A stretch of DNA of 64,000 nt from Candidatus Dormibacteria bacterium (GCA_050998755.1 JBPCPW010000013.1:5668-69667); one strand, 5' to 3'. Counted from the stretch's first letter, positions 5,875-12,023 are shown. Notes: generated by a model not told the origin, from the sequence alone. Numbers and translations are program-made.

Positions 5875-8800
5875 GTGCCTGACCCACGTTCCTCCTCCGA
5901 ACGCCCGGCGCTGCCGCCAGGGCTTTACGAGGCGCTGCTAACTGTCGACCTGCAGCAGCGAATAGCCGAGCTGCGGGATGCGTTCCGCTCGGGCGAACTC
6001 GACCCCATCGAGGCGCCGGCGACACTCTCTGCGTATCTTGCATCCGTGGTCGCTCGAGAGTTCAAGCGGCCGGGCTTCGCGGGAGATCCAGAGCGCCAGG
6101 TCGAGGTAATCAATCGGATCATCGCCGGGCTGGTTGCGAGCGGTGGGCAGGACGGCGATGTTGAAGACTCGATCTTGTCTCCTCCACGGCTTCTCCTCGA
6201 GGTCCACCGGCAAGATTCAGACGGAGCACTGTCGGCTCGGCGACCGAGCACTCCTCTTCGCGACGACGCGTTGTTCGTTCGTGCGCCCGGCGAGCCGGCG
6301 TTTGCGTCGGAACTGAATCGGGAGCTCGCATCAGCAGATCGCGTCGACCTCATCTGCGCGTTCGTCGTCTGGAACGGGATCCGCGTCCTGTGGGATGAGA
6401 TCTCCCGCCTCCACGAGCGCGGTGGGACGTTCCGCCTGATCACTACGACTTTCACCGGTATCACCGAGGCCCGAGCCCTCGAAGAACTGATCAGGCGCGG
6501 GGCGGACGTCAAAGTCAGCTACGACACCCGCAGCACAAGGCTGCACGCAAAGGCTTGGCTCTTCCACCGTAACTCGGAATTCGGCACCGCCTACGTCGGT
6601 TCGTCGAACCTCACGCACACCGCCATTCACGATGGACTCGAATGGAATGTCCGGCTGTCCCAGGCGAAGTCCGGCGCGCTCCTTGAGCGCTTTGCTGCGA
6701 CGTTCGAAACGTATTGGCAGGACGAGCGGTTTGAGGACTACAACGCCGACCGCTTCGCTGCCGCCGTGCAGCGCATCGGCAACGACGACGCAATTACCAC
6801 GGCCATGTTCGACATACACCCACTTCCCTTCCAGGAGGCGATCCTCGAGAGACTGCAGGTCGAGCGTGACCGCCACGATCGATGGCGCAACTTGGTGGTG
6901 GCTGCCACAGGGACCGGAAAGACCGTCATGGCAGCCCTGGACTACGCGCGGCAGCCGATGGTTGAAGGTCGTCGGCCGACCTTGCTGTTTGTGGCCCACC
7001 GAGACGAGATCCTCAATCAGAGCCTGGCGACCTTTAGAACCGTGTTGAAGGACGGAGCTTTCGGCGAGAAGTGGGCCGGTGGATCCAGACCGGCTGCCGC
7101 CCGACACGTATTCGCCTCCATCCAATCCCTGCACGCCGCCGACGTCGCTGCCCTGGACCCACGTCGGTACGACGTCGTCATTGTCGATGAGTTCCATCAC
7201 GCCGCCGCGCCTACTTACCGCCGCCTGCTCGATCGCGTGCAACCTCATCTCTTGTTGGGTTTGACGGCGACACCTGAGCGGACCGATGGCTTGAACATCA
7301 CACAGTGGTTCGAAGGGCGAATCGCTGTTGAGCTCCGGCTCTGGGACGCCATCCAGCAGGACCTGCTGTGCCCGTTTCAGTACTTCGGAATAGCCGACAA
7401 CGTTGACCTATCCGCCGTGCGGTGGTCGCCGCGCGGCTACGACAAAGCCGAACTCTCCAACCTATACACCGGAAACAACGCACGACTGGCGAAGGTTCTC
7501 GAATCCGTTCGGCAGATCGTTCGAGATCCGCTGGAAATGCGCGCGCTGTGCTTCTGCGTCAGCGTGGCCCATGCGGAGTTCATGGCAGGTGCTTTCAACA
7601 CCGCGGGCATTCCGTCGGCGGTGGTGACGGGAGAGACTCCGCGCGAGAAGAGGCAGGCGGCAATACGAGACTTGGCCGAAGGACGGATCAACGCTGTCTT
7701 CTCCGTAGACGTCTTCAACGAAGGGCTGGATATCCCGTCCGTCGATACCGTGCTGTTCCTCCGGCCCACGGAGAGTGCGACCGTGTTTATCCAGCAGCTT
7801 GGCCGAGGACTGCGGAAGCTGCCGGGCAAGAGCGGTCTCACCGTTCTCGATTTCATCGGTCAGCAGAATCGCCAGTTCCGATTCGAACCACGGTTCCTGG
7901 CACTGACCGGCTCCGGAAGGCGCTTTATCGCGCGCGACGTAGAGGATGACTTTCCTTTCCTGCCATCCGGGTGCTCGATCCGACTGGACCGGGTTTCTCG
8001 AGAGATCGTTCTTGGGAATCTCAGGGCAGCGTTCCGCGGGCGACGGGCGGGATTGGTCGCCGAGCTGAGCGCGCTCGGCGATATCCCACTGGCCGAGTTC
8101 CTGAGGCAGGCCGACCGGGAGATCGCTGACGTCTACCTGGCTGGAGGCTGGACAGCTATTCGGCGGGACGCTGGTTTCGCACAGCCGCCGGGCCCGGATG
8201 AGGAGAAGCTGGCCAAGTCGATCTCGCGGATGCGGCACGTCGACGACGAGGCGCGAAGCGCGGCTTACGCTCGTTGGGTCTCCGAGCCGCAGCCGCCGGC
8301 CGTCGAGTCGATGAGCCTGCGTGACCAGCGCCTGCTGGCGATGCTGCACACAGACCTTTGGGGGCGCTCCCGCGAGCTCGGCTCCGTGCAGCAGTCTATG
8401 GCGCGGTTCTGGCCGCATCCCGACCTACGACGCGAGCTGGTTGAGCTGCTCGATGTGTTGGACGACCAGGCGCAGCACGTCCTGCTCGACTCAAGTCTCC
8501 CGGACGAGGTGCCACTTTATGTCCACGAACGCTATACACGCGACGAGGTGCTCGCGGCTCTTGGGGACGCAACCGCCGAGTCACCGTCGAGTAGCCGCGA
8601 GGGCGTCCATTTCAACCAGGCCTACGGCGTGGATGTCTTCTTCGTAACACTGAAGAAGTCGGAGGAGCGATTCTCGCCCTCGACGATGTACAGGGACTAC
8701 GCCCTCTCGCCGACCCTGTTCCACTGGGAATCGCAGTCACGGACGACAGCCAACTCGCCTACCGGGCTCAGGTATCAGGACCATGTCGCCGGAGGCACCA

Positions 8801-8979
8801 AGATCCTGATCTTCGCGAGGGAGACAACCAAGGATGATTCGGGTGACACGACCTCGTTTTTGTTCATGGGACCGGCAACGTATGTGAGTCACGTCAGCGA
8901 GCGGCCTATGCAGATCACTTGGCGCCTGATGCACCCGCTGCCCGGGGACTTCTTCCAAGCCGCAAAGGCAGTGGCGTGA
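5875..8979 (+). CDS. HKD (phospholipase-D/Nuc-like) nuclease domain fused to an SF2 DExH helicase and a C-terminal DUF3427-like region (1034 aa). Probable defence gene.
   Basis: The HKD motif is LHAKAWLFHRNSEFGTAYVGSSNLT (HxK...GSxN). The helicase motifs are Walker A AATGTGKT, DEFHH, GLTATP and QQLGRGLR. The ~330-aa C-terminal extension matches the DUF3427 architecture as I recall it. Confidence 0.8.
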   Translation: MPDPRSSSERPALPPGLYEALLTVDLQQRIAELRDAFRSGELDPIEAPATLSAYLASVVAREFKRPGFAGDPERQVEVINRIIAGLVASGGQDGDVEDSILSPPRLLLEVHRQDSDGALSARRPSTPLRDDALFVRAPGEPAFASELNRELASADRVDLICAFVVWNGIRVLWDEISRLHERGGTFRLITTTFTGITEARALEELIRRGADVKVSYDTRSTRLHAKAWLFHRNSEFGTAYVGSSNLTHTAIHDGLEWNVRLSQAKSGALLERFAATFETYWQDERFEDYNADRFAAAVQRIGNDDAITTAMFDIHPLPFQEAILERLQVERDRHDRWRNLVVAATGTGKTVMAALDYARQPMVEGRRPTLLFVAHRDEILNQSLATFRTVLKDGAFGEKWAGGSRPAAARHVFASIQSLHAADVAALDPRRYDVVIVDEFHHAAAPTYRRLLDRVQPHLLLGLTATPERTDGLNITQWFEGRIAVELRLWDAIQQDLLCPFQYFGIADNVDLSAVRWSPRGYDKAELSNLYTGNNARLAKVLESVRQIVRDPLEMRALCFCVSVAHAEFMAGAFNTAGIPSAVVTGETPREKRQAAIRDLAEGRINAVFSVDVFNEGLDIPSVDTVLFLRPTESATVFIQQLGRGLRKLPGKSGLTVLDFIGQQNRQFRFEPRFLALTGSGRRFIARDVEDDFPFLPSGCSIRLDRVSREIVLGNLRAAFRGRRAGLVAELSALGDIPLAEFLRQADREIADVYLAGGWTAIRRDAGFAQPPGPDEEKLAKSISRMRHVDDEARSAAYARWVSEPQPPAVESMSLRDQRLLAMLHTDLWGRSRELGSVQQSMARFWPHPDLRRELVELLDVLDDQAQHVLLDSSLPDEVPLYVHERYTRDEVLAALGDATAESPSSSREGVHFNQAYGVDVFFVTLKKSEERFSPSTMYRDYALSPTLFHWESQSRTTANSPTGLRYQDHVAGGTKILIFARETTKDDSGDTTSFLFMGPATYVSHVSERPMQITWRLMHPLPGDFFQAAKAVA

Positions 8980-9014
8980 AGAGCCAGACGCGGACGCACA
9001 GACCGGGCGCGAAC

Positions 9015-11279: not shown

Positions 11280-11303
11280 CTGAGGTATCCCATCCGCCTC
11301 TAT

Positions 11304-12023
11304 CTAACTACTCGGTGCGGGGTGCCGGTTGTCAGGCGGCATCGCTCCGACTGCCCCGGCAAGGTACTTCAGTTCGCTCTCCAGAGCGTTCTGCATCGCC
11401 AGATCAACTCGTGACGCGAGCACCAGACGGACGTGCTCGCGCTGGGCAACTGGCTGGCAGAGCATCTCTGGCACGCGGGCCACGGCGCGAGACAACTCAT
11501 CTGAGAACTCCCGGATCTGGCGGCGCAGGGCGTCGTTCATGCGGACCTGCAGACCATCGAAACGCGTGAGCCGGGGCGGGAGGCCCACCGCGGAGAGCTG
11601 ATCAGACGAAATCCCGATCTTCTCGTACAGGCTCACGACATCGCTCGCCACCTGGCCGATCAGCACCGCATCGCCACTCTTCCCCGGCAATCCGAACGCC
11701 GCCTGCATCCGATGCACGTCAAAGATCGTCTCGACCGATGATGCGCATAGGGCCGTCTCCTGCATGGAGGTCTGAAGAAGGTCGAAGGCGTTCATGGGGT
11801 TGTCAATCGAGGGTGTCGATGCCCGCGCAGCGACGCGTAACTCGTCGCTCTGAGCGATCCCGTCGGCGATGAGGGCGCCGAACAATTCGTACTCCCAGCC
11901 GACGGGCCGCTCGGCGATGATCCGTTTTGCCCGTGGCGAAAGGTCAAACCGCGCGTCCGCTTCAATCCAGGGGCGCGCCGCAATAGATACACCGGGTAGC
12001 GCGACCGCGCACAGCCGGCGCAC
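11304..12023 (-). CDS. Hypothetical protein (239 aa).
   Basis: ORF on the same strand and in series with the two genes above. Nothing recognisable. Confidence 0.35.
   Translation of the reverse strand: MRRLCAVALPGVSIAARPWIEADARFDLSPRAKRIIAERPVGWEYELFGALIADGIAQSDELRVAARASTPSIDNPMNAFDLLQTSMQETALCASSVETIFDVHRMQAAFGLPGKSGDAVLIGQVASDVVSLYEKIGISSDQLSAVGLPPRLTRFDGLQVRMNDALRRQIREFSDELSRAVARVPEMLCQPVAQREHVRLVLASRVDLAMQNALESELKYLAGAVGAMPPDNRHPAPSS

What the first reader, a model, noticed from the sequence alone, without database searches (positions are those of the whole stretch)
5875..12023. HKD-nuclease/SF2-helicase/DUF3427 giant protein with convergent Mrr-like, 420-aa and 239-aa unknown genes next to addAB
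A single 1034-aa protein combines an intact PLD-type HKD active site, all SF2 helicase motifs and a DUF3427-like C-terminal domain. As I recall, the COG3886 (HKD nuclease) plus COG1061 helicase combination was flagged in early defence-island surveys, but no mechanism is known. Immediately downstream and convergent are three co-directional genes: a membrane-anchored Mrr-cat endonuclease-like protein, a 420-aa unknown and a 239-aa unknown. The whole block lies between the addB/addA-like genes and the palindrome-regulated locus, a typical neighbourhood for an accessory or defence module.
Basis: partly seen in the sequence, partly recalled or inferred. Interest (0 to 1): 0.65.

Follow-up and report, generated by a model that had tools for sequence, protein, structure and literature searches.

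The report
SauUSI-type methylated-DNA restriction enzyme, unrelated neighbours
The 1034-aa protein is a new member of the well-studied SauUSI family of ATP-driven enzymes that cut foreign DNA carrying modified cytosine, and the three genes beside it are separate accessory genes rather than conserved partners.

Summary
All four ORFs are at the stated coordinates, and the domain reading of the 1034-aa protein is correct: PLD nuclease, SF2 helicase and DUF3427. The statement that no mechanism is known is wrong. The protein matches PADLOC's Type IV methyl-directed restriction enzyme model over its full length (E 3e-274). It also matches the SauUSI crystal structure 7CLG (E 3e-83). All four mutagenesis-proven SauUSI catalytic residues and helicase motifs I, II, III and VI are invariant in it and ten relatives. 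SauUSI is a single-polypeptide homodimer whose mechanism has been worked out.

The four-gene module is not supported. Twelve other loci carrying orthologues (39-55% identity, five phyla) contain no homologue of the Mrr-like, 420-aa or 239-aa proteins. Eleven contexts of the 420- and 239-aa families show none of the other three genes. No close relatives exist, so recent co-acquisition cannot be tested.

Side results. The 420-aa protein ends in a 230-aa domain with a RusA-like fold and belongs to an unannotated family. The 239-aa protein is a free-standing copy of an unannotated helical domain that is usually fused to TIR domains on mobile elements. GC3 of the four genes is lower than that of their neighbours, which fits a small accessory patch. 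Verdict: new member of a known kind, low-to-moderate interest.

The parts
5875..8979 (+). SauUSI-family Type IV (modification-dependent, ATP-dependent) restriction endonuclease, 1034 aa
   Evidence: PADLOC mREase_IV PDLC03659 E 3.1e-274, res 109-1032 on model 3-941/945. PDB 7CLG (SauUSI) E 3.2e-83. Pfam PLDc_2 + ResIII + Helicase_C + DUF3427.
5875..6312 (+). N-terminal extension (res 1-146) with no counterpart of this length in SauUSI
   Evidence: SauUSI aligns only from query res 147. Orthologues align from res 9-16 and share a PGLYE.L.T motif. Function unknown.
6313..6744 (+). PLD-family nuclease domain with catalytic H224, K226, N245, E256
   Evidence: These residues align to SauUSI H119, K121, N139, E150, which are mutagenesis-proven (PMC3141236). 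They are invariant in 11 sequences.
6787..7884 (+). SF2 helicase-like translocase ATPase: Walker A K349, DEFHH 438-442, motif III 464-469, motif VI 640-647
   Evidence: Pfam ResIII E 1.8e-30 and Helicase_C E 2.2e-15. Motifs invariant in 11 sequences.
8392..8958 (+). DUF3427 target-recognition domain (SRA-like in SauUSI); the region 7885-8391 before it corresponds to the helical coupler
   Evidence: Pfam DUF3427 E 4.6e-26, res 840-1028. Weak direct alignment to SauUSI TRD res 840-919. The SRA fold of the SauUSI TRD is reported in PMC7913695.
9015..9983 (-). Mrr_cat (PD-(D/E)XK) nuclease-domain protein with a C-terminal hydrophobic tail. This is the maximal ORF; the real start may be 9905 or 9722. 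Mrr_cat domain 9216-9554, tail 9030-9098.
   Evidence: Pfam Mrr_cat E 1.1e-14. Hydropathy peak at res 296-318. Start uncertainty. No Mrr_N-type DNA-binding domain detected.
10017..11279 (-). 420-aa protein. Its C-terminal 230 aa (10020-10712) is a conserved domain with a RusA-like fold from an unannotated family. The N-terminal ~190 aa are poorly conserved and modelled with low confidence.
   Evidence: 82 homologues, mostly 234-260 aa, covering res ~190-420. AF2 pLDDT >90 for res 190-420. Foldseek matches RusA 1q8r/2h8c at prob 0.97-0.99, TM 0.60-0.68. BFVD top hits are Rus/RusA resolvases, best E 9.7e-4. D267-L-E269-N270 aligns to RusA D70-L-D72-N73.
11304..12023 (-). 239-aa protein: a free-standing copy (domain 11346-11936) of an unannotated all-helical domain that is usually fused C-terminal to TIR domains
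   Evidence: Full HMMER scan gives 185 hits at E<1e-3. TIR_2 or CAP12-PCTIR_TIR lies N-terminal in 7 of 10 proteins tested. 27 of 44 profile hits carry TIR Pfam domains. AF2 pLDDT 85, pTM 0.80, eight helices. No significant PDB fold match.
2539..5655 (-). Context only: AddB/AdnA-like PD-(D/E)XK helicase-nuclease subunit. A UvrD-type partner lies at 2-2599(-).
   Evidence: Pfam PDDEXK_1 E 5.8e-36. UvrD-helicase E 9e-49.

Best explanation
The 1034-aa gene encodes a stand-alone Type IV restriction enzyme of the SauUSI family.

By homology to SauUSI it most likely works as follows. Two protomers dimerise through their N-terminal PLD domains and form a pre-assembled HxK nuclease site. The C-terminal DUF3427/SRA-like domain recognises a modified base in incoming DNA (5mC or 5hmC in SauUSI; the specificity here is unknown). 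Recognition switches on the SF2 ATPase. The ATPase translocates or loops dsDNA and brings the nuclease to cleavage sites, so that modified foreign DNA is shredded. The host's own DNA, which is presumed to lack that modification, is spared. No methyltransferase partner is needed.

Shown here: the domain order, full-length family membership, conservation of every proven catalytic and ATPase residue, the absence of an adjacent methyltransferase, and a patchy cross-phylum distribution in variable contexts. Inferred: dimerisation, ATP-dependent translocation, the identity of the modification sensed, and activity in vivo.

The three convergent genes are not required partners of this enzyme. They are a tail-anchored Mrr_cat nuclease, a protein with a RusA-like fold, and a TIR-associated helical domain without a TIR. 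I read them as independently acquired accessory or defence-type genes that share a small low-GC3 patch between the AdnAB-like repair genes and a NAD/ADP-ribose metabolism cluster.
For: Family membership:
- PADLOC mREase_IV PDLC03659 E 3.1e-274, full length; the SauUSI-type model PDLC03658 E 8e-83.
- PDB 7CLG (SauUSI) E 3.2e-83 over res 147-669, plus a second stretch in the TRD.
- Pfam PLDc_2, ResIII, Helicase_C and DUF3427 in SauUSI order.
- H224, K226, N245, E256 correspond to SauUSI H119, K121, N139, E150. These and motifs I, II, III and VI are invariant in 11 sequences. Mutagenesis and mechanism are in PMC3141236, PMC7913695 and bioRxiv 10.1101/2025.10.16.682607.

No methyltransferase:
- None among the annotated neighbours.
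- No C5-methyltransferase motif in the 64-kb window.

Stand-alone gene:
- 12 orthologue loci, from Planctomycetota, Actinomycetota, Bacteroidota, Bacillota and metagenomes, have variable neighbours and no Mrr-like, p420 or p239 homologue.
- p420-family contexts lack the other genes: L005-L009, L020, L021.
- p239-family contexts lack them too: L016-L019, L022, L023 and one more place.

Accessory patch:
- GC3 is 0.72-0.78 for the four genes, against 0.80-0.89 for flanking housekeeping genes.
Against: - No biochemical data exist for this protein or for any member of its ~1035-aa subfamily that I could find.
- The TRD aligns only weakly with the SauUSI TRD (16 bits), so the sensed modification could differ.
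- The ~146-aa N-terminal extension has no counterpart in SauUSI and no known role.
- All comparison loci are distant (39-55% identity). The closest, L010 at 55%, sits on a 3.8-kb contig with no informative flank.
- No relative above 90% identity exists outside this genome. The local block could therefore still have been acquired together, or cooperate, in this lineage.
- The three minus-strand genes are close together (24-33 bp gaps on maximal ORFs) and each has a nucleic-acid or immunity flavour.
Confidence: 0.8

Rival explanations
1. Four-gene defence module. The SauUSI-like enzyme, the Mrr-like nuclease, p420 and p239 form one functional system that is inherited together.
For: The genes are physically adjacent, and the three minus-strand genes are tightly spaced. 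All four have lower GC3 than their flanks. Each has a defence or nucleic-acid flavour: Mrr_cat, RusA-like fold, TIR-associated domain.
Against: None of the 12 other SauUSI-like loci has any of the three genes. None of the roughly 11 contexts of the p420 and p239 families has the others. SauUSI is fully active as a single polypeptide (PMC3141236, PMC7913695). The SauUSI-like gene is convergent to the other three, so it is not co-transcribed with them.
Confidence: 0.06
2. The three minus-strand genes form a separate, new defence operon next to the Type IV enzyme. It would be membrane-associated. The Mrr_cat protein would act as a tail-anchored nuclease effector, the RusA-like protein would sense or cut branched DNA, and the helical p239 domain would act as a sensor or adaptor, as it presumably does for TIR effectors elsewhere.
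For: The genes are co-directional with short gaps on maximal ORFs. The Mrr-like protein has a C-terminal TM segment. The p239 domain is fused to or adjacent to TIR effectors on mobile elements. A 2-TM ORF with coding periodicity lies immediately upstream of p239. One p239 homologue has an N-terminal TM helix.
Against: No co-occurrence of any pair was seen in the p420 or p239 contexts sampled. If NCBI's starts are right, the gaps are about 295 bp and 170 bp, which weakens the operon reading. There are no PADLOC hits beyond weak Mrr_cat matches. The Mrr-like protein's own relatives could not be surveyed.
Confidence: 0.1
3. The 1034-aa protein is a housekeeping DNA-repair helicase-nuclease that works with the adjacent AdnAB/AddAB-like genes, not a restriction enzyme.
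For: It lies next to and divergent from the AddB/AdnA-like gene. Its helicase core resembles RadD (PDB 6JDE E 4e-24; NCBIfam RadD E 4e-29 but far below the cutoff).
Against: The RadD match covers only the helicase core and scores 101 bits against a 720-bit cutoff. The PLD + DUF3427 architecture and the full-length mREase_IV match are specific. Orthologues are patchy across phyla, lie on plasmids next to integrases, and never sit beside AddAB-like genes in the loci examined. GC3 is lower than in AdnA.
Confidence: 0.03

Closest known systems
SauUSI (Staphylococcus aureus USA300; PDB 7CLG), Type IV ATP-dependent modification-dependent restriction endonuclease
   Same: Same single-polypeptide order: PLD nuclease, SF2 helicase-like ATPase, helical coupler, DUF3427/SRA-like TRD. 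All four proven catalytic residues and ATPase motifs I, II, III and VI are conserved. No adjacent methyltransferase. E 3e-83 to the solved chain.
   Different: Identity is only about 30-35% in the nuclease and helicase part, and the match in the TRD is very weak (16 bits), so the recognised modification or sequence may differ. There are about 100 extra N-terminal residues, conserved within this ~1035-aa subfamily. The host is an uncultured Dormibacterota MAG rather than a Firmicute. It falls in a separate PADLOC model (PDLC03659, not the SauUSI-type PDLC03658).
NgoAVII / CglI-type PLD-nuclease plus helicase restriction systems
   Same: They combine a PLD-family nuclease with an SF2 helicase-like ATPase for ATP-dependent DNA cleavage (as discussed in PMC7913695).
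   Different: [quoted passage not shown] From my own knowledge, not tested here, they are multi-subunit and recognise unmodified sequences through B3-like domains. The window protein has the SauUSI arrangement with a DUF3427 TRD.
McaZI/YenY4I group (DUF3427 fused to PD-(D/E)XK; PMC6765204)
   Same: They share the DUF3427 modification-sensing domain and occur in defence islands.
   Different: They have no helicase and no PLD nuclease, and they are ATP-independent with low in vitro activity.
E. coli Mrr (Type IV restriction endonuclease), for the 322-aa neighbour
   Same: Mrr_cat PD-(D/E)XK catalytic domain (Pfam E 1e-14). The sequence reads GDGGVD...LQVK, which fits the D...QxK signature I know from this family.
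   Different: No Mrr_N winged-helix DNA-binding domain was detected. It has a C-terminal hydrophobic tail instead. The N-terminal ~140 aa are unannotated and of uncertain coding status.
RusA Holliday-junction resolvase (PDB 1Q8R, 2H8C), for the 420-aa neighbour
   Same: Fold match (Foldseek prob 0.97-0.99, TM 0.60-0.68 on the RusA length). The D-L-E-N motif aligns to RusA D70-L-D72-N73. Viral RusA models dominate the BFVD hits.
   Different: The conserved domain is twice the size of RusA (230 aa). The secondary-structure order suggests two beta-alpha-beta-alpha-beta-beta units. The first keeps D/E/N but lacks the D91 equivalent. The second keeps K76-, D80- and DD-like residues but lacks D70/D72. 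There is no Pfam RusA hit. The two halves show no detectable sequence similarity to each other.
Bacterial TIR-domain defence proteins (ThsB-like, retron-TIR, PDC-S66), for the 239-aa neighbour
   Same: Most relatives of p239 carry an N-terminal TIR_2 domain that matches these models, and they sit on integrative elements or transposon-rich DNA.
   Different: The window protein has only the C-terminal helical domain. No TIR is encoded anywhere in the 64-kb window. The helical domain itself is in none of the four HMM libraries.

Membership tests
SauUSI family (Type IV ATP-dependent modification-dependent REase) | N-terminal PLD-family nuclease with catalytic HxK plus N and E (SauUSI H119, K121, N139, E150) | tested here: met
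   PLDc_2 E 1.8e-10. H224, K226, N245, E256 align to the SauUSI residues and are invariant in 11 sequences.
SauUSI family (Type IV ATP-dependent modification-dependent REase) | Central SF2 helicase-like ATPase with Walker A, Walker B, motif III and motif VI | tested here: met
   ResIII E 1.8e-30 and Helicase_C E 2.2e-15. ATGTGKT 344-350, DEFHH 438-442, TATPER 464-469 and QQLGRGLR 640-647 are invariant.
SauUSI family (Type IV ATP-dependent modification-dependent REase) | C-terminal DUF3427 target-recognition domain (SRA-like fold) in the same polypeptide | tested here: met
   Pfam DUF3427 E 4.6e-26, res 840-1028. Weak direct alignment to SauUSI TRD 840-919. The SRA fold itself was not modelled here.
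SauUSI family (Type IV ATP-dependent modification-dependent REase) | Full-length collinear similarity to family members or family models | tested here: met
   PADLOC mREase_IV PDLC03659 E 3.1e-274, covering model 3-941/945. 7CLG E 3.2e-83.
SauUSI family (Type IV ATP-dependent modification-dependent REase) | No cognate methyltransferase next to the gene | tested here: met
   The neighbours within about 8 kb are AdnAB-like, Mrr-like, p420, p239, DUF429-HD, NadR and PnuC. No C5-MTase motif IV in the six-frame translation of the window.
SauUSI family (Type IV ATP-dependent modification-dependent REase) | ATP-dependent cleavage of modified (5mC/5hmC) but not unmodified DNA; homodimer through the PLD domains | not testable with these tools
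   Needs protein biochemistry or in vivo restriction assays.
Canonical Mrr (E. coli Mrr type) | Mrr_cat PD-(D/E)XK catalytic domain | tested here: met
   Pfam Mrr_cat E 1.1e-14, 55 bits against a cutoff of 21.
Canonical Mrr (E. coli Mrr type) | N-terminal winged-helix (Mrr_N) modified-DNA-binding domain | tested here: not met
   No Pfam or NCBIfam hit N-terminal of res 144. The coding status of res 1-87 is doubtful. The protein has an Mrr_cat domain but is not filed as Mrr.
RusA resolvase family (PF05866), for the 420-aa protein | RusA alpha/beta fold | tested here: met
   Foldseek PDB 1q8r_B prob 0.99, TM 0.68, rmsd 3.6 A; 2h8c prob 0.97-0.98. BFVD top hits are Rus/RusA, best E 9.7e-4. The E-values are modest.
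RusA resolvase family (PF05866), for the 420-aa protein | Match to the family HMM | tested here: not met
   No Pfam hit for the window protein. Only 1 of 66 family members hits RusA, at E 0.22. The profile search against PDB sequences finds no RusA.
RusA resolvase family (PF05866), for the 420-aa protein | Catalytic D70, D72, D91 (and K76) together in one RusA unit (residue roles recalled from the RusA literature) | tested here: inconclusive
   D267, E269 and N270 align to D70, D72 and N73, but the D91 position in that unit is not acidic. K369, D372 and D391-D392 lie in the second half. These alignments are not statistically significant, and the model coordinates could not be inspected.
Multi-gene defence system comprising the four genes | Conserved co-occurrence of the component genes in other genomes | tested here: not met
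   tblastn of all components against 12 SauUSI-like loci, 7 p420-family loci and 6 p239-family loci found no co-occurrence. Only distant relatives were available.

The most novel reading that the evidence does not exclude
The three convergent genes could be a previously undescribed, membrane-associated defence module. It would consist of a tail-anchored Mrr_cat nuclease, a double RusA-like branched-DNA sensor or nuclease, and a stand-alone copy of a helical domain that elsewhere controls TIR effectors. That helical protein may itself be membrane-anchored if the upstream 2-TM ORF is fused to it by a frameshift. The module could act alone or back up the adjacent SauUSI-type enzyme. Independently of this, the p239 domain and the p420 domain each define an unannotated family of likely immunity or mobile-element function.
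Probability: 0.08. Interest if true: 0.6.

Novelty: new member of a known kind. Interest (0 to 1): 0.27.

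Why it matters
The main gene adds a divergent member to the SauUSI family. It comes from an uncultured phylum, carries an extra N-terminal region and has a divergent recognition domain. That is useful for mapping Type IV specificities and for anyone trying to transform such organisms, but it does not change how we understand the system.

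The practical value of this check is negative. The gene should be annotated as a Type IV restriction enzyme rather than a mystery helicase-nuclease, and the four-gene system should not go into defence-system catalogues.

Two by-products may be worth separate attention. One is a widespread helical domain that partners with TIR effectors on mobile elements and has no model in Pfam, NCBIfam, PADLOC or PHROGs. The other is a ~235-aa family with a RusA-like fold, found in soil bacteria and on actinobacterial plasmids.

Tried and rejected
The metagenome scan returned 6 loci, several on short contigs.
- Exact-sequence look-ups for the 420-aa ORF and for NCBI's 371-aa version found nothing.
- The word-indexed search with p239 found only itself. 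Relatives appeared only in the full HMMER scan.
- Foldseek gave no significant PDB match for p239, only generic helical bundles. Profile searches of both families against PDB sequences were empty or spurious.
- The idea that the p420 domain is a tandem RusA duplication has no sequence support. hhalign of half 1 against half 2 finds nothing. I keep it as an inference from secondary-structure order.
- The p420 family was not found in IMG/VR viral contigs. The p239 alignment was too variable to make search patterns.
- The Mrr-like protein has no relative on PLSDB plasmids and no informative PDB sequence match.
- I looked for island borders and found none: no tRNA in the window, no convincing flanking direct repeats, no integrase nearby.
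- The promoter and terminator scan was uninformative, with 0 promoters and 1 internal terminator-like site, below the shuffle expectation.
- I searched the window for a TIR partner for p239 and for second copies of p239 or p420. None was found.

Full report
OBSERVATION

The four ORFs are real and lie at the stated coordinates: 5875-8979(+) 1034 aa, 9015-9983(-) 322 aa, 10017-11279(-) 420 aa and 11304-12023(-) 239 aa. In this ~65% GC sequence, long spurious ORFs are common. I therefore checked codon-position GC. All four show GC3 (0.72-0.78) > GC1 > GC2 (0.47-0.52), unlike the overlapping alternative frames.

The upstream genes are an AddB/AdnA-like PD-(D/E)XK protein at 2539-5655(-) (Pfam PDDEXK_1, E 6e-36) and a UvrD-type helicase that runs off the window start.

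The source is an uncultured 'Candidatus Dormibacteria bacterium' MAG (NCBI proteins MGI8607993-96).

THE 1034-AA PROTEIN

Pfam gives PLDc_2 (res 150-281), ResIII/DEAD (314-469), Helicase_C (547-647) and DUF3427 (840-1028, E 4.6e-26).
- PADLOC's Type IV methyl-directed restriction enzyme model PDLC03659 matches at E 3.1e-274 (910 bits). The match covers res 109-1032 on model positions 3-941 of 945. A sister model scores E 8e-83.
- Against solved structures, the best hit is 7CLG, the SauUSI crystal structure (E 3.2e-83, res 147-669). A second, weak stretch aligns in the C-terminal recognition domain.

SauUSI is well characterised.
- It is an ATP-dependent Type IV enzyme that cleaves 5mC/5hmC DNA. 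H119, K121, N139 and E150 were shown to be catalytic by mutagenesis, and no methylase partner is present (PMC3141236).
- Its structure shows a homodimer held by the PLD domains, an SF2 translocase, a helical coupler and an SRA-fold TRD (PMC7913695).
- Single-molecule work shows loop translocation and shredding of modified DNA (bioRxiv 10.1101/2025.10.16.682607).

In the window protein the four catalytic residues are H224, K226, N245 and E256. They are invariant in the 11-sequence alignment of the window protein, nine orthologues and one tandem paralogue. The same holds for Walker A (344-350), DEFHH (438-442), motif III (464-469) and motif VI (640-647). The classical HKD aspartate position is H231 and varies among relatives, as it does in SauUSI (E126).

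Differences from SauUSI:
- About 100 extra N-terminal residues, conserved within this ~1035-aa subfamily.
- A recognition domain that aligns only weakly with the SauUSI TRD, so the modification sensed cannot be predicted.

No methyltransferase lies nearby, and no C5-methyltransferase motif occurs in the window.

IS IT A FOUR-GENE MODULE?

I collected 12 other loci that encode full-length orthologues (39-55% identity).
- Three Planctomycetota MAGs (L001-L003).
- Six metagenome contigs (L010-L015).
- Plasmids or chromids of Arthrobacter, Hymenobacter and Peptoclostridium (L024-L026).

tblastn with the Mrr-like, 420-aa and 239-aa proteins found nothing in any of these loci. About eight of them have at least 3 kb of flank on one or both sides.

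Their neighbours differ from locus to locus:
- planctomycete cytochromes, Kelch proteins, oxidoreductases and ABC transporters;
- in L013, a second tandem paralogue plus a patatin-like protein and an AAA_15/AAA_21 ATPase;
- on the Hymenobacter plasmid, integrases.

This is the pattern of a horizontally mobile single-gene system.

One limit must be stated. At 90% identity, each of the four proteins clusters only with copies from this same genome. A strain-level gain/loss test is therefore impossible, and joint acquisition of this particular block is not excluded.

THE THREE NEIGHBOURS

(i) Mrr-like protein.
- Mrr_cat spans res 144-256 (E 1e-14).
- There is one C-terminal hydrophobic segment (res 296-318).
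- No Mrr_N-type DNA-binding domain is detected.
- The first ~87 codons lose coding periodicity, and gene callers disagree on the start (235, 296 or 322 aa).

(ii) 420-aa protein.
- It has 82 homologues, mostly free-standing proteins of 234-260 aa that match res ~190-420. They share the motifs PLLASW, DLENYLTP, K291, LPPGPV, NWVxLWKPTxDAMGPVLG and DDRI.
- AlphaFold2 models this domain at pLDDT >90. The N-terminal ~190 residues are modelled with low confidence.
- Foldseek finds RusA (1q8r, 2h8c; prob 0.97-0.99; TM 0.60-0.68 on RusA length). Against viral models, the top hits are almost all Rus/RusA resolvases (best E 9.7e-4).
- A profile alignment puts D267-L-E269-N270 on RusA D70-L-D72-N73.
- The domain is twice the size of RusA. 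Its secondary-structure order suggests two beta-alpha-beta-alpha-beta-beta units, but the halves show no mutual sequence similarity. No Pfam RusA hit exists. I therefore call it RusA-like in fold, not a RusA family member.
- Its contexts vary: housekeeping neighbours, a relaxase/T4SS region, and actinobacterial plasmids beside GIY-YIG and RecB-like nucleases, DprA, SSB and ParB. It was absent from IMG/VR viral contigs.

(iii) 239-aa protein.
- The word-indexed search found only itself. The exhaustive HMMER scan found 185 relatives at E<1e-3.
- The homologous region (res ~30-226) is usually the C-terminal half of ~365-aa proteins whose N-terminal half is a TIR domain. Seven of 10 tested proteins have TIR, and 27 of 44 profile hits carry TIR Pfam domains.
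- In L018, a free-standing copy sits 69 bp downstream of a TIR gene.
- The relatives lie on integrative elements or among transposases, integrases and toxin-antitoxin genes.
- The model is an all-helical bundle (pLDDT 85, pTM 0.80) with no significant PDB match.
- No model for this domain exists in Pfam, NCBIfam, PADLOC or PHROGs.
- The window encodes no TIR domain anywhere.

None of the p420-family or p239-family neighbourhoods contains a homologue of the other window genes.

CONTEXT

The four genes have lower GC3 (0.72-0.78) than AdnA (0.80), the DUF429-HD protein (0.84), NadR (0.82) and most other genes in the window (0.81-0.89). This is consistent with an accessory patch. However, there is no tRNA, no integrase and no flanking repeat.

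Downstream lies a cluster built around NAD and ADP-ribose: DUF429+HD_4, NadR, PnuC, ADP-ribosylglycohydrolase, a deacetylase-like protein, PIN and ARPP-1.

VERDICT

The central gene is a new, divergent member of a known and mechanistically understood kind, the SauUSI-family Type IV restriction enzymes. The statement that its mechanism is unknown is incorrect.

The four-gene system is not supported. The best reading is a stand-alone Type IV enzyme lying beside three unrelated accessory genes. I give a residual ~8-10% chance that the three neighbours form a system of their own.

Interest is low to moderate. The only novel material is the two unannotated neighbour families: a TIR-associated helical domain and a double-size domain with a RusA-like fold.

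Noticed in passing
window 12030-12330 (minus strand, frame with first base at 12367), overlapping the start of the 239-aa gene at 12023: There is strong coding-type GC periodicity (GC2 0.35-0.42, GC3 0.72-0.88) in a frame that encodes a small protein with two hydrophobic helices (MLNTRLMS...LAPLVAMVVVTVVLTLMLLVVF...). That frame has no stop until 11792, while the periodicity switches to the p239 frame near 12000-12050. It could be a separate small membrane protein, or a frameshift (real or an assembly error) that would give p239 an N-terminal membrane anchor. One distant homologue (P0215) has an N-terminal TM helix.
   Followed up: partly
window 12394-23286: A run of NAD/ADP-ribose-related genes lies directly after the finding: DUF429+HD_4 (RelA/SpoT-type hydrolase domain) 12394-13821(+), NadR-like NMN adenylyltransferase/kinase 13839-14909(-), PnuC NMN transporter 14797-15516(-), ADP-ribosylglycohydrolase 16044-17099(+), histone-deacetylase-like protein 17096-18247(-), PIN 20062-20484(-) and ARPP-1 22261-23286(+). 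It is curious next to a TIR-associated domain, but I found no evidence of a link.
   Followed up: partly
window 11346-11936 (p239 domain); relatives P0084-P0271: The 239-aa protein defines an unannotated helical domain, with motifs RPxGWEYxLFA and AFGxPGxxGDxxxIxHLA. It is mostly found as the C-terminal half of ~365-aa TIR proteins on mobile elements, once with CAP12-PCTIR_TIR+DUF4062, and once as a separate gene right after a TIR gene (L018 4922-6669). No Pfam, NCBIfam, PADLOC or PHROGs model covers it.
   Followed up: partly
window 10020-10712 (p420 C-terminal domain); L020 6028-6693; L021 6013-7119: This is an unannotated ~235-aa family with a RusA-like fold, from soil Chloroflexota-, Dormibacterota- and Actinomycetota-type sources. 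On the Pimelobacter plasmid pA-N39 it sits among SSB, DprA, ParB-N, GIY-YIG and RecB-like nuclease genes.
   Followed up: partly
P0012, P0032, P0002 (N-terminal) and P0024 (C-terminal) in alignment A1: Some p420-family members carry an extra ~110-aa Cys-containing module (GYLxWxxxHPxGFVxN ... LHxAxC ... KxC ... CxxC). It can be at either end of the protein. The window protein's N-terminal region aligns to it only loosely and lacks the cysteines.
   Followed up: no
L013 6332-9541 and 9995-13102: Two SauUSI-like paralogues lie in tandem on one metagenome contig. The upstream one (1069 aa, ~36% identical over res 118-721) has a different N-terminus containing an HLHVHLIP histidine-triad-like motif. 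A patatin-like gene and an AAA_15/AAA_21+DUF3696 ATPase gene follow.
   Followed up: no
window 5875-8979, 9015-9983, 11304-12023: The NCBI start calls look too short for two genes. The 902-aa call for the SauUSI-like protein removes an N-terminal region that is conserved in orthologues from residue ~12. The 193-aa call for p239 cuts the family's conserved RPxGWEY motif. For the Mrr-like gene, the short NCBI call (235 aa, ATG 9722) agrees better with the coding periodicity than the maximal ORF does.
   Followed up: yes
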